From an uncultured Gammaproteobacteria bacterium (GTDB lineage Bacteria > Patescibacteriota > Patescibacteriia > UBA2591 > UBA6264): a stretch of DNA of 38,964 bases. Below, in pieces: positions 35,639 to 35,870 of the stretch. The notes beneath the pieces are model-generated. The model was not told where the DNA came from. It made no database searches and was given only the letters and a program-made list of their open reading frames with translations. The position numbers were made by a program, and so were the translations under genes. The stretch lies in contig CAZGUY010000005.1 of the NCBI GenBank assembly GCA_964528795.1, positions 1-38,964 of the forward strand, given 5' to 3'. Each line of letters begins with the position of its first letter. The first letter of the stretch is position 1.

Positions 35639-35644
35639 AACAGT

Positions 35645-35835
35645 GGTTAACCTTAAGGGTTCACCAAAAAGGGAGCCAAAAGGGAGGAAAAGGGAGGTCT
35701 GATCTCCACCCGGAGGTTTGATCTCCGTAGGGAGGTCAAACCTCCCCACCTCCCTACCACTCCCTATCATACCTCACTTTTGTGGGGTAGTTAACAATTG
35801 TTAACTTTTGTTATTAGGTTAACATGTGTTAAACC
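35645..35835 (+). repeat. GC-rich element, copy C: head module, three phased AAAAGGGAGG repeats, GGAGG/CTCC hairpins, ACCTCCC repeats, GTTAAC palindromes
   Basis: See the finding on this region. The head GGTTAACCTTAAGGGTTCACCA matches copies A and B. Confidence 0.85.
35790..35805. promoter_or_regulatory. perfect 16-bp palindrome GTTAACAATTGTTAAC (operator-like)
   Basis: Exactly self-complementary. Two more GTTAAC/GTTAAA sites lie within the next 30 nt. Confidence 0.5.
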
Positions 35836-35838
35836 TTT

Positions 35839-35870
35839 AAGACAAAGAAATAGTCTTTGTCTTTTTGTTT
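35839..35870 (+). terminator. terminator-like hairpin downstream of element C
   Basis: AGACAAAG-aaatagt-CTTTGTCT followed by TTTTGTTT. Confidence 0.55.

What the first reader, a model, noticed from the sequence alone, without database searches (positions are those of the whole stretch)
35639..35870. ~190-nt non-coding array between two terminators upstream of ftsK: phased AAAAGGGAGG iterons, mirrored ACCTCCC repeats, and a perfect 16-bp palindrome
After a strong terminator (35611-35638) and before a second terminator-like hairpin (35839-35870) there is no ORF. The region instead contains, in order:
- The family head, GGTTAACCTTAAGGGTTCACCA.
- Three tandem AAAAGGGAG(G/C) units at 35667, 35678 and 35688. 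The 10-11-bp period puts A-tracts in helical phase.
- Two GGAG-GT(C/T)TGAT-CTCC hairpins and GGGAGGT-caa-ACCTCCC.
- A pyrimidine mirror, ACCTCCC-c-ACCTCCC-t-ACCACTCCC. It can pair with the purine repeats as a ~100-nt imperfect hairpin spanning 35671-35764.
- GTTAACAATTGTTAAC (35790-35805, perfectly self-complementary), followed by GGTTAACATGTGTTAAACC, another imperfect palindrome.

Phased direct repeats plus dyad operators are the grammar of iteron, centromere or regulator-binding regions. Alternatively, the two flanking terminators could delimit a ~200-nt structured ncRNA whose promoter I cannot see.

The purine-rich GGGAGG motifs next to ftsK loosely recall FtsK-orienting polar sequences. 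I regard that as only a loose association.
Basis: partly seen in the sequence, partly recalled or inferred. Interest (0 to 1): 0.7.

Follow-up and report, generated by a model that had tools for sequence, protein, structure and literature searches.

The report
Mosaic of species-specific intergenic hairpin repeats
The odd non-coding stretch upstream of ftsK in this Patescibacteria genome is real, but it is best read as a pile-up of short G+C-rich hairpin repeats scattered through this organism's gene spacers, joined to an older palindrome-bearing spacer, and not as a replication, segregation or FtsK-guiding site.

Summary
The region is a 45% G+C island in a 31% G+C genome and folds far better than shuffles (z = -10). 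It is not a single unit.

- **Dispersed repeat modules.** The 'head' and the GGAGG/CCTCC and GGCGG/CCGCC hairpins lie in at least seven spacers of the window. They also occur on another contig from the same samples. They are absent from all relatives examined.
- **Variable locus.** rpoC and ftsK are adjacent in most relatives. Here orphan genes and these modules lie between them.
- **Ancestral 3' end.** The last palindrome, the second terminator and the ftsK promoter are conserved in the closest relative (FtsK 79% identical), which lacks the G+C-rich part.
- **Negative searches.** There is no Rfam match, no + strand promoter, no conservation of the element, and no transposase, integrase or Nop/Tas gene in the window.

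Best reading (about 0.55): a lineage-specific REP/BIME- or BOX-like mosaic repeat cluster beside a relic operator-like palindrome region. At most it acts as a stable RNA or DNA hairpin insulator behind the upstream gene.

The iteron, centromere and KOPS readings are not supported. A minus-strand small RNA or a recombination-site role remains possible. Interest is modest.

The parts
35610..35638 (+). Intrinsic terminator 1 of the orphan 211-aa gene (10-bp stem, 5 G-C pairs, T7). It also scores as terminator-like on the - strand.
   Evidence: sequence
35637..35650 (.). Palindrome site 1, TTAACAGTGGTTAA, overlapping the start of the head
35645..35666 (+). Head module H (GGTTAACCTTAAGGGTTCACCA): an imperfect hairpin shared with 2928 and 21404 and with contigs L001/L079 and L053
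35667..35698 (+). Three tandem AAAAGGGAGS units (period 10-11) forming the 5' arm of the long hairpin
   Evidence: (D5)
35670..35765 (.). Long imperfect hairpin: -59.2 kcal/mol as + strand RNA and -63.6 as - strand RNA
35691..35747 (+). Three 19-nt units carrying GGAGGTYTGATCTCC / GGAGGTCAAACCTCC hairpins. The same 15-mer occurs on L156, a contig from the same samples.
   Evidence: (D2)
35740..35769 (+). Pyrimidine repeats (ACCTCCC, CTCCCTACCA, CTCCCTATCA) forming the 3' arm of the long hairpin
   Evidence: D6, I5, I17
35771..35788 (+). Small hairpin ACCTCAC-TTTT-GTGGGGT
35766..35794 (-). Weak sigma-70-like promoter match on the - strand (TTAACT-17-TATGAT, 9 of 12). Its -35 lies inside the 16-bp palindrome.
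   Evidence: 9 such sites found in the 1.4-kb scan, 5.7 expected
35776..35831 (+). 28-nt tandem duplication (71% identity) that produced palindromes 2 and 3
   Evidence: D3
35790..35805 (.). Perfect 16-bp palindrome GTTAACAATTGTTAAC (site 2)
   Evidence: (I21)
35817..35835 (.). Imperfect palindrome GGTTAACATGTGTTAAACC (site 3). It is ancestral: the same TTAACATGTGTTAA with flanks occurs in L121 at 8128, upstream of a methyltransferase gene.
35839..35866 (+). Terminator 2, ancestral (aligned with L121 from 9907)
35868..35895 (+). ftsK promoter TTTACT-16-TATAAT with a TG extension, conserved in L121. The ftsK ATG is at 35932.
2928..2975 (+). Family copy 1: head plus C module (GGGCGGTTAGACCGCC) plus GGAATGCATAAAA, between the ndk terminator/promoter and a 62-aa ORF
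21404..21492 (+). Family copy 2: head plus C module (with a G.U pair) plus S-type double GGAGG/CCTCC hairpin, between the LPG-synthase-TM gene and the 189-aa gene
22087..22139 (+). Cluster C: two C modules plus a GGAGGTGAG remnant, downstream of the 189-aa gene
34064..34137 (+). Cluster A, downstream of rpoC: G+C-rich hairpins including the 37-nt S module (34101-34137)
34741..34836 (+). Cluster B, between the divergent promoters of the 141-aa (-) and 211-aa (+) ORFs: an identical 37-nt S module (34741-34777) plus a CCTCC/GGAGG hairpin (34811-34836)

Best explanation
The region is a composite of two parts.

**1. Repeat cluster, 35640 to about 35770.** This is the largest local cluster of a lineage-specific family of short, G+C-rich, palindromic intergenic modules. 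The family comprises a conserved head, GGCGG/CCGCC hairpins and GGAGG/CCTCC hairpins, combined in different numbers at different spacers. That is the grammar of REP/BIME mosaics in enterobacteria and of BOX elements in pneumococci. Here local tandem duplication of 10-11-nt and 19-nt units on both arms has enlarged the cluster into a ~95-nt hairpin.

**2. Older spacer, about 35776-35895.** This A+T-rich spacer carries TTAAC-N4-GTTAA dyads (one ancestral, one made by a 28-nt duplication), the ancestral terminator 2 and the ftsK promoter.

**Shown.** The modules are dispersed, confined to spacers and modular. They are absent from relatives. The 3' end of the region is ancestral. The rpoC-ftsK interval has gained genes in this lineage.

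**Inferred.** The modules spread by a copy mechanism (transposase in trans, or recombination/slippage). Their effect, if any, is generic: very stable hairpins in read-through RNA (a 3' exonuclease block and back-up terminator between the orphan gene and ftsK) or in DNA. A dedicated control of ftsK is unlikely. The dyads are most likely a regulator's binding sites left over from, or shared with, the promoter region of a neighbouring gene that the closest relative still has.
For: - **Dispersal.** The head occurs 3 times, all intergenic. The 37-nt S module is identical at 34101 and 34741, with a variant at 21453. C modules lie at 2952, 21430, 22087 and 22107. GGAGGTYTGATCTCC lies at 35693 and 35712. 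The same 15-mer, and its inverted form, occur on L156, a 7.6-kb contig from the same sequencing runs.
- **Spacer restriction.** Perfect G+C-rich hairpins form 8 clusters in the 9% of the window that is non-coding, against 6 in the 91% that is coding.
- **Lineage restriction.** No head or module was found in L121 (FtsK 79% identical), L122, L148-L152 or L153-L155. L122 has its own, different G+C-rich repeat (GTCATYCCGAGCGA) in the same rpoC-ftsK spacer.
- **Variable locus.** rpoC and ftsK are adjacent in L122, L148, L149, L150 and L151. The 211-aa gene upstream of the element has no homologue at all.
- **Ancestral tail.** Window 35839-35946 aligns with L121 9907-10015 (score 129). Window 35808-35842 aligns with L121 around 8128 (score 58; shuffle maximum 43).
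- **No evidence for a dedicated RNA gene.** Rfam gave nothing for any of the three head-bearing copies, and no + strand promoter lies after terminator 1. Cluster B sits between two divergent promoters, so no predicted promoter transcribes it.
Against: - Only about 47 kb of this organism is available, so genome-wide copy number is unknown.
- No transposase, RAYT or integrase was seen.
- No clear terminal inverted repeats with target duplications. The 18-nt inverted ends of copy 3 are themselves palindromes, and the 10-nt direct repeat flanking copy 2 is A+T-rich and could be chance.
- The head is identical over about 20 nt in unrelated contigs of other ~30% G+C organisms (L001/L079, L053). This argues for a selected, protein-recognised site and against junk.
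- Seven of eight module segments fold more stably as + strand (gene-sense) RNA, because G.U pairs would become A.C on the other strand. This hints at selection at the RNA level. The exception is the long hairpin of this very element.
Confidence: 0.55

Rival explanations
1. A stand-alone small RNA gene. The most coherent version lies on the - strand. Transcription would start near 35759 from TTAACT-17-TATGAT, whose -35 is covered by the 16-bp palindrome acting as an operator. It would run through the long hairpin and the head hairpin and stop at the reverse face of terminator 1, giving a ~150-nt highly structured RNA.
For: - A - strand promoter-like site at 35794-35766 and a - strand terminator-like site at 35632-35610.
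- The long hairpin is the one module that is more stable on the - strand (-63.6 against -59.2 kcal/mol).
- Whole-region fold z-score of -8.9 on the - strand.
- A G+C island in an A+T-rich genome is a classic ncRNA signal.
- In L001 and L053 the head is also antisense to the flanking genes.
Against: - The promoter match is 9 of 12, at a density close to chance (9 sites found, 5.7 expected in the 1.4-kb scan).
- The T-run on the - strand is poor.
- No Rfam family matches.
- The relative L121 lacks the element.
- The body is made of modules that occur elsewhere in other combinations and orientations.
- Copies 1 and 2 have + strand promoter-like contexts instead.
Confidence: 0.15
2. A protein-binding array. 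The TTAAC-N4-GTTAA dyads (35637, 35791, 35819, plus near-matches at 35801 and 35919) are operators of a dimeric regulator or sites of a recombinase. The phased A-tracts bend the DNA.
For: - All three exact sites of the window lie here, against 0.15 expected.
- Five of the 11 sites with at most one mismatch lie within 300 nt.
- TTAACATGTGTTAA with its flanks is conserved in L121, 60-75 nt upstream of a methyltransferase gene.
- The 16-bp palindrome is perfect.
Against: - The sites lie upstream of terminator 2, so they are badly placed to control the conserved ftsK promoter.
- Two of the sites arose by a 28-nt duplication (D3).
- recA and ftsK upstream regions in the window and in L121 have no such site, so a LexA/SOS role is not supported.
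- No regulator, replication initiator or partition gene is adjacent.
- The purine 'iterons' are paired by their complements into a hairpin and are members of the dispersed module family.
- There is no resemblance to parS or dif beyond being A+T-rich dyads (my reading of the sequence).
Confidence: 0.15
3. A recombination or mobile-element boundary: either an attC-like folded site or the body of a MITE. The ends would be TTTAAC-AGTG-GTTAACC and GGTTAAC-ATGT-GTTAAAC, which pair as two short helices around an unpaired 4-nt spacer and enclose a variable hairpin. The element would mark where foreign genes were inserted.
For: - 18-nt inverted ends, 83% complementary (I4).
- GTTAAAC fits the attC core GTTRRRY (established consensus, recalled from memory).
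- The lineage-specific ORFs (62, 189, 141 and 211 aa) are each bracketed by module clusters.
- rpoC-ftsK is uninterrupted in five relatives.
- The paralogue of the 189-aa gene on L156 is also flanked by modules.
Against: - The element is 200 nt long, against the usual 57-141 nt for attC.
- The left box is TTTTAAC, not RYYYAAC.
- Copies 1 and 2 have no right-hand box.
- The orphan ORFs carry their own strong promoters, unlike integron cassettes.
- There is no integrase, no cassette array and no target-site duplication.
- The right end is ancestral spacer DNA shared with L121, so it is not the end of an insert.
Confidence: 0.08
4. FtsK-orienting polar sequences (KOPS-like) or a dif site next to ftsK.
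For: Only the proximity to ftsK and the G-rich words.
Against: - The purine words are mirrored by complementary pyrimidine words within 100 nt, so they are not polar.
- The excess of GGGAG/GGAGG on the + strand elsewhere matches the base skew (G 18.8%, C 11.9%) of a window in which nearly all genes are on +.
- Cumulative GC skew rises through the region with only a small dip and no lasting switch.
- Relatives lack the element.
- No 11-6-11 Xer-type architecture is present (read from the sequence).
Confidence: 0.01
5. A TIGR (tandem interspaced guide RNA) array or another guide-RNA array of the kind recently described in Patescibacteria.
For: TIGR-Tas systems occur in CPR bacteria, and some arrays are tandem stem-loops with poor sequence conservation (PMC12045711). 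The element has an 18-19-nt half-period.
Against: - No Nop-domain (Tas) protein is in the window, and the neighbouring 211-aa protein starts with a hydrophobic signal-peptide-like segment (my reading of its sequence) and matches no Pfam family.
- The conserved part of each 19-nt unit is 15 nt and the variable part 4 nt, the opposite of 8-12-nt spacers between short UG...CCA boxes (PMC12045711).
- There are only three units.
Confidence: 0.01

Closest known systems
REP sequences and BIMEs (bacterial interspersed mosaic elements) of Enterobacteria and Pseudomonas
   Same: Both are short G+C-rich imperfect palindromes confined to spacers, often just after genes. Both are clustered in variable combinations with other short motifs, are species-specific, and form stable hairpins in mRNA 3' ends. 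REP/BIME properties are from PMC2817692 and PMC3733652.
   Different: - No conserved GTAG/CGTC tag on the modules (GTAG occurs once, at 35727).
- No RAYT transposase is known for this organism.
- Copy number is unknown.
- The host is an A+T-rich, streamlined Patescibacteria genome.
- The modules are built on Shine-Dalgarno / anti-Shine-Dalgarno-like words (GGAGG/CCTCC).
BOX elements of Streptococcus pneumoniae (boxA-boxB(n)-boxC)
   Same: A modular build with a conserved 5' module followed by a variable number of internal hairpin modules. Both are intergenic and strongly folding, and sit in an A+T-rich Gram-positive-type genome. BOX properties are recalled from established knowledge.
   Different: There is no conserved 3' module: only a weak CATAAAAATAA tail in copies 1 and 2. 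Three of the clusters have no head. There is no sequence similarity.
MITEs / Correia-type elements
   Same: A small non-coding insert with inverted ends (18 nt, 83%) in a spacer next to a gene, carrying promoter- and terminator-like signals.
   Different: The inverted ends are each self-palindromic. No target-site duplication is seen. The right end is ancestral DNA shared with L121. The other family copies lack the right end.
Integron attC sites
   Same: Two pairs of complementary boxes separated by an unpaired spacer and enclosing a variable imperfect hairpin. Located 3' of an orphan ORF.
   Different: Too long, the boxes fit the consensus only partly, there is no integrase or cassette array, and the ORFs have their own promoters.
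Operator arrays of dimeric helix-turn-helix regulators
   Same: 14-16-bp dyads repeated at short distances. One dyad is conserved between two genomes in a promoter-proximal position (L121).
   Different: No cognate regulator is identified. In the window the dyads are separated from the nearest promoter by a terminator.

Membership tests
REP / REPIN (RAYT-associated) | 20-40-bp imperfect palindrome, extragenic | tested here: met
   Modules H, C and S are 15-37-nt imperfect or perfect palindromes, all in spacers.
REP / REPIN (RAYT-associated) | Conserved GTAG or CGTC tetranucleotide at one end of each repeat | tested here: not met
   Head and S/C modules start with GGTT, GGAGG or GGGCGG. GTAG precedes only the hairpin at 35727.
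REP / REPIN (RAYT-associated) | High copy number genome-wide, and a RAYT gene flanked by REPs | not testable with these tools
   Only about 47 kb of this organism is held (the window, L119 and L156). No transposase was found in it.
BIME / BOX-type mosaic element | Different short modules combined in variable number and order at different loci | tested here: met
   H+C (copy 1); H+C+S (copy 2); C+C+S' (22087); S alone (34101, 34741); H plus multiple GGAGG-type units (copy 3).
BIME / BOX-type mosaic element | Conserved terminal modules at both ends (boxA and boxC) | tested here: not met
   The 5' head is present in 3 of 7 clusters. There is no shared 3' module.
MITE | Terminal inverted repeats plus target-site duplication | tested here: inconclusive
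   There is an 18-nt inverted pair in copy 3 only (I4), made of self-palindromic sites, and the right arm is ancestral. The 10-nt AATAATTTTA repeat flanking copy 2 may be chance in A+T-rich DNA.
Structured ncRNA of a described family (Rfam) | Match to a covariance model at or near its gathering score | tested here: not met
   No gathering-level match in the window. The best permissive hits are microRNA hairpin models at 28 bits against thresholds of 73 and above.
Structured ncRNA (any) | Conservation with compensatory changes in relatives | tested here: not met
   The only other copies of the element are 100% identical contigs from the same samples. It is absent from all relatives.
Iterons / plasmid-type origin or centromere | Direct repeats bound by an adjacent initiator or partition protein, conserved with that gene | tested here: not met
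   No Rep, ParB or similar gene is nearby. The repeats pair into a hairpin with their complements and are absent in relatives.
KOPS / FtsK-orienting polar sequences | G-rich octamer with strong strand polarity along each replication arm | tested here: not met
   The words are mirrored within the element. Outside it, counts follow base skew.
TIGR-Tas array | Adjacent Nop-domain Tas gene, and units with two 8-12-nt spacers between UG/CCA boxes (36-nt period) | tested here: not met
   No Nop domain in any ORF scanned. The unit is 19 nt with 4 variable nt. Criteria are from PMC12045711.
Integron attC | R''(RYYYAAC)-L''...L'-R'(GTTRRRY), 57-141 bp, with integrase or a cassette array | tested here: inconclusive
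   The box geometry is present (35635-35652 and 35817-35834) and R' fits. However, R'' is TTTTAAC, the length is 200 nt, and there is no integrase or array in the window. No attC model was available.

The most novel reading that the evidence does not exclude
The hairpin modules are not passive repeats but the recombination or insertion signals by which this streamlined Patescibacteria lineage acquires and shuffles small lineage-specific genes. Every lineage-specific ORF in the window (62, 189, 141 and 211 aa) is bracketed by module clusters. So is the 189-aa paralogue on L156. The otherwise fixed rpoC-ftsK junction has been opened exactly where the clusters lie. The conserved head, identical in other ~30% G+C organisms, would be the site recognised by the responsible recombinase or single-strand transposase.
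Probability: 0.1. Interest if true: 0.65.

Novelty: new member of a known kind. Interest (0 to 1): 0.3.

Why it matters
If the main reading holds, this finding explains itself away. It is not a regulator of ftsK, an origin, a centromere or a new ribozyme-like RNA. It is a local accumulation of selfish or structural hairpin repeats.

The modest value lies elsewhere:
- Interspersed mosaic repeats have hardly been described in the very small genomes of Patescibacteria, where non-coding DNA is scarce.
- Here the repeats mark the spots where lineage-specific genes have entered between conserved housekeeping genes.
- The exactly conserved 20-nt head, shared with other organisms, is a concrete handle for finding the protein that recognises it.
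- For annotation pipelines, it is a warning that G+C-rich, strongly folding islands in A+T-rich genomes are not necessarily ncRNA genes.

Tried and rejected
- **Known RNA families.** Rfam at gathering threshold on the whole window, and permissive scans of all three head-bearing copies, gave nothing meaningful.
- **tRNA/tmRNA.** None at default settings.
- **Head scan of GTDB representative genomes.** 10 hits, of which nine are chance hits in unrelated taxa. Only L001 carries a family-like head doublet.
- **Head scan of metagenome contigs.** 106 stretches. Only L053 and L079 are family-like and the rest are chance.
- **Head scan of viral contigs.** 25 stretches, all chance.
- **Phage record similarity.** No match.
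- **Homologues of the upstream 211-aa ORF.** None, so no synteny anchor.
- **LexA/SOS box idea** (AAC-N4-GTT, ftsK and recA nearby). Dropped because recA and the conserved ftsK promoter lack the site.
- **dif, parS and NrdR-box resemblance.** Compared by eye against the recalled consensus sequences, with no fit.
- **TIGR-Tas array.** Rejected.
- **IS110 bridge RNA, omega RNA and retron ncRNA.** No partner gene in the window.
- **Small-protein coding on the - strand.** The 56-aa ORF has GAGG only one base from the ATG, and the ATG lies upstream of the only candidate promoter's start site. Rejected.
- **CsrA-type sponge.** The GGA motifs are in stems, not loops. Not pursued.
- **Strand assignment from G.U against A.C pairs.** Seven of eight segments favour the + strand, but the element's own long hairpin favours the - strand, so this is inconclusive.
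Full report
**Source and setting.** The window is a chromosomal piece of a Patescibacteria (CPR) bacterium. It carries comEC, ndk, tuf, the large ribosomal-protein cluster, alaS, scpAB, a Mur ligase, rpoB, rpoC and ftsK, nearly all on the + strand. The best named FtsK relatives are 'Patescibacteria group bacterium'. G+C is 30.7%, with G 18.8% and C 11.9% on the + strand. Identical copies of the ftsK-upstream region occur on two short Logan contigs from runs SRR12088346 and SRR12088347.

- Both terminators are found by the scan: stem 35610-35632 with T7, and stem 35839-35863 with a T-run.
- The repeat finder recovers the three AAAAGGGAGS units (35667, 35678, 35688), the three 19-nt units carrying GGAGGTYTGATCTCC / GGAGGTCAAACCTCC (35691, 35710, 35729), the pyrimidine repeats (35742-35769), the perfect palindrome at 35790-35805 and the imperfect one at 35817-35835.
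- The stretch is a 42-46% G+C island.
- It folds to -105.8 kcal/mol, against -60.9 ± 4.5 for shuffles (z = -10.0). The opposite strand gives z = -8.9.
- The predicted long hairpin spans 35670-35765.
- All three exact TTAAC-N4-GTTAA sites of the window lie here, against 0.15 expected.
- The head GGTTAACCTTAAGGGTTCACCA recurs at 2928 and 21404, against 0.00 expected.

**It is not one unit: the G+C-rich part is made of dispersed modules.** A short-word BLAST of the three head-bearing loci against the window, followed by pattern scans, showed that the hairpins recur in other spacers.
- A 37-nt double hairpin, TGGAGGTCTTTCCTCCCGAAGGGAGGTGAGACCTCCT, is identical at 34101 (just after rpoC) and 34741 (between two divergent promoters). 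A variant lies at 21453.
- GGGCGGT-nnn-ACCGYC hairpins lie at 2952, 21430, 22087 and 22107.
- GGAGGTYTGATCTCC lies at 35693 and 35712.
- Copies 1 and 2 share head + GGCGG hairpin + GGAATG ... CATAAAAATAA. Copy 2 adds the GGAGG double hairpin. Copy 3 (the finding) has the head followed by many GGAGG-type units.

A further contig from the same runs (L156) was reached through a paralogue of the window's 189-aa gene. It carries GGAGGTTTGATCTCC and its inverted form upstream of that paralogue, and a degenerate copy downstream. All module clusters are in spacers. Perfect G+C-rich hairpins form 8 clusters in the 9% non-coding DNA, against 6 in the 91% coding DNA.

**Relatives lack the element.**
- The nearest relative found (L121, FtsK 79% identical) has no head, no module and no G+C island upstream of ftsK.
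- In L122, L148, L149, L150 and L151, rpoC is followed directly by ftsK, and their spacers are unrelated to the window.
- L122 carries a different G+C-rich repeat of its own (GTCATYCCGAGCGA) in that spacer, and even inside the neighbouring RodZ-like gene. Colonisation of spacers by lineage-specific palindromic repeats therefore looks like a recurrent theme in this group.
- In the window the rpoC-ftsK interval holds a 141-aa ORF on the - strand, a 211-aa ORF with a signal-peptide-like start and no homologue at all, and three module clusters.

**The 3' third of the finding is older than the rest.** Window 35839-35946 (terminator 2, the TTTACT-16-TGtTATAAT promoter and the ftsK start) aligns with L121 9907-10015 (score 129). 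Window 35808-35842, including TTAACATGTGTTAA, aligns with L121 around 8128 (score 58; shuffle maximum 43). In L121 that dyad lies 60-75 nt upstream of a 556-aa methyltransferase gene that sits between it and the terminator/ftsK promoter. The window looks like the same arrangement with that gene missing. The perfect palindrome at 35790 belongs to a 28-nt tandem duplication of this segment (D3). The first dyad (35637) overlaps the head. The dyads are thus the one part of the finding with cross-genome conservation and may be real binding sites. In the window, however, a terminator separates them from the ftsK promoter, and neither recA nor the conserved ftsK promoter carries such a site.

**RNA gene?**
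- Nothing in Rfam matches any copy.
- There is no room for a + strand promoter between terminator 1 and the head, and none was found. On the + strand the element can only be read-through RNA caught between two terminators.
- On the - strand there is a 9-of-12 promoter-like site (35794-35766) whose -35 lies in the 16-bp palindrome. The reverse face of terminator 1 scores as terminator-like. The long hairpin is slightly more stable on that strand. This gives a coherent but weakly supported ~150-nt sRNA model.
- Across the family, seven of eight segments fold better in the gene-sense strand because of G.U pairs. This hints at RNA-level constraint, but the G- and T-rich coding strand also favours it.
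- Cluster B lies between two divergent promoters, so no predicted promoter transcribes it. That argues against a purely RNA-level role for the modules.

**The head.** The same 19-22 nt occurs in other ~30% G+C contigs: L001/L079, next to a tRNA gene and murA, and L053. There it appears as two copies 45 nt apart with a conserved linker, antisense to the flanking genes. The hairpin always keeps a mismatch and an extra G, and the 5' arm varies while the 3' arm (GGGTTCACC) is constant. The data therefore do not show covariation. Such identity across organisms points to a protein-recognised site or to recent horizontal spread. I could not identify the protein.

**Other ideas tested.**
- KOPS: the purine words are mirrored inside the element, and G-rich words elsewhere follow base skew.
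- TIGR-Tas arrays, known from CPR bacteria (PMC12045711), need a Nop-domain protein and 8-12-nt spacers between UG/CCA boxes. Neither is present.
- attC-like geometry (TTTAAC-AGTG-GTTAACC ... GGTTAAC-ATGT-GTTAAAC) is intriguing. It is confined to this copy, is too long, and lacks an integrase. Its right arm is ancestral spacer.

**Conclusion.** The most economical account is a lineage-specific REP/BIME- or BOX-like mosaic of hairpin modules. Local duplication has enlarged it, and it sits next to a relic dyad-bearing promoter region, in a spacer that has been a landing site for new genes. I put this at about 0.55. The main alternatives are a minus-strand sRNA at about 0.15 and a functional dyad operator array at about 0.15. 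They are not mutually exclusive with the best reading for the tail. A recombination-site role is at about 0.08-0.10. The finding is real but of modest interest. Its most useful leads are the exactly conserved head and the association of module clusters with lineage-specific genes.

Noticed in passing
window 25262-25492: A 358-nt spacer between scpB and a Mur ligase gene (85 nt in relative L122) holds a tRNA-like unit at 25271-25338. Its acceptor-like stem GGGCGGT/ACCGTCC has a G3.U70 pair and A73, the alanine identity set, and its arms are the same as those of the C module. It also has a T-arm-like hairpin with the non-canonical loop TGCAAAT and a long central hairpin, but no D arm. About 60 nt downstream, a perfect TTGACA-16-TATAAT promoter drives a short terminated unit whose 5' part is complementary to the central hairpin (duplex -49.9 kcal/mol). 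ARAGORN calls it only at relaxed settings, and the Rfam tRNA model scores 18.5 bits against a threshold of 29. It may be a degenerate tRNA-like RNA with an antisense partner, or simply another mosaic of the same modules.
   Followed up: partly
L122 9905-9975 and 12460-12960: The relative AH-259-L05 has its own G+C-rich repeat family (CCCCTTTGTCATYCCG..., GTCATTCCGAGCGA...CGAGGAAT hairpins). It lies in the rpoC-ftsK spacer and is repeated about five times inside the linker of the RodZ-like HTH_25 gene, so repeats can invade coding sequence.
   Followed up: partly
L001 3360-3480 (- strand), L079 2990-3090, L053 95-175: A conserved ~75-nt unit made of two head motifs 45 nt apart, with a conserved linker (TTAGATTCGT on the head strand). 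It lies upstream of murA next to a tRNA gene in L001/L079 and between two genes in L053, antisense to the flanking genes. L053 also has a perfect DnaA box (TTATCCACA) about 20 nt upstream of it.
   Followed up: partly
window 21513-22082; L156 4640-5232: The 189-aa Lys/Glu-rich protein with two internal repeats belongs to a Patescibacteria family (48 homologues, about 60% identity). In the window its ATG has no Shine-Dalgarno sequence within 35 nt, and the nearest GGAGG is locked in the module hairpin. The paralogue on L156 has an extra A in a poly-A run near its 5' end that shifts the frame, which may be phase variation or an assembly error.
   Followed up: partly
window 2858-2877 and 3239-3257; 35610-35636 and 35840-35866: The terminator hairpins that flank head-bearing inserts resemble each other. 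AAGGGGCTTGTTAGCCCCTT and AAGGGGCTATTGCCCCCTT flank copy 1 plus the 62-aa ORF. Terminators 1 and 2 are 70% identical over 27 nt. This may be duplication at insertion or merely convergent terminator shape.
   Followed up: no
window 3020-3041 (+) and 34638-34659 (-): An identical 22-nt 5' leader, CTTTAAAATAAAAAAGGAGGAT, precedes both the 62-aa ORF and the 141-aa ORF. A shorter version (AAAAGGAGGATC) precedes the 211-aa ORF at 34930. The lineage-specific ORFs therefore share their translation-initiation region.
   Followed up: no
window 35808-35842 against L121 8108-9906: Relative to L121, the window lacks a 556-aa HEAT/UPF0020 methyltransferase gene between the conserved TTAACATGTGTTAA dyad and terminator 2. 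GTTAAC-containing dyads upstream of a methyltransferase gene could be its own regulatory or target sites.
   Followed up: no
window 25348-25356 and 26887-26895: DnaA-box consensus words (TTATCCACA and TGTGGATAA) lie in the spacers on either side of the Mur ligase gene. No dnaA gene or box cluster is in the window.
   Followed up: no
window 18615-20267: A TrwB/TraG-type coupling-protein homologue (type IV secretion, with a C-terminal zinc finger) sits among housekeeping genes, next to a glycosyltransferase and an LPG-synthase-TM gene. comEC is at 22-1491.
   Followed up: no
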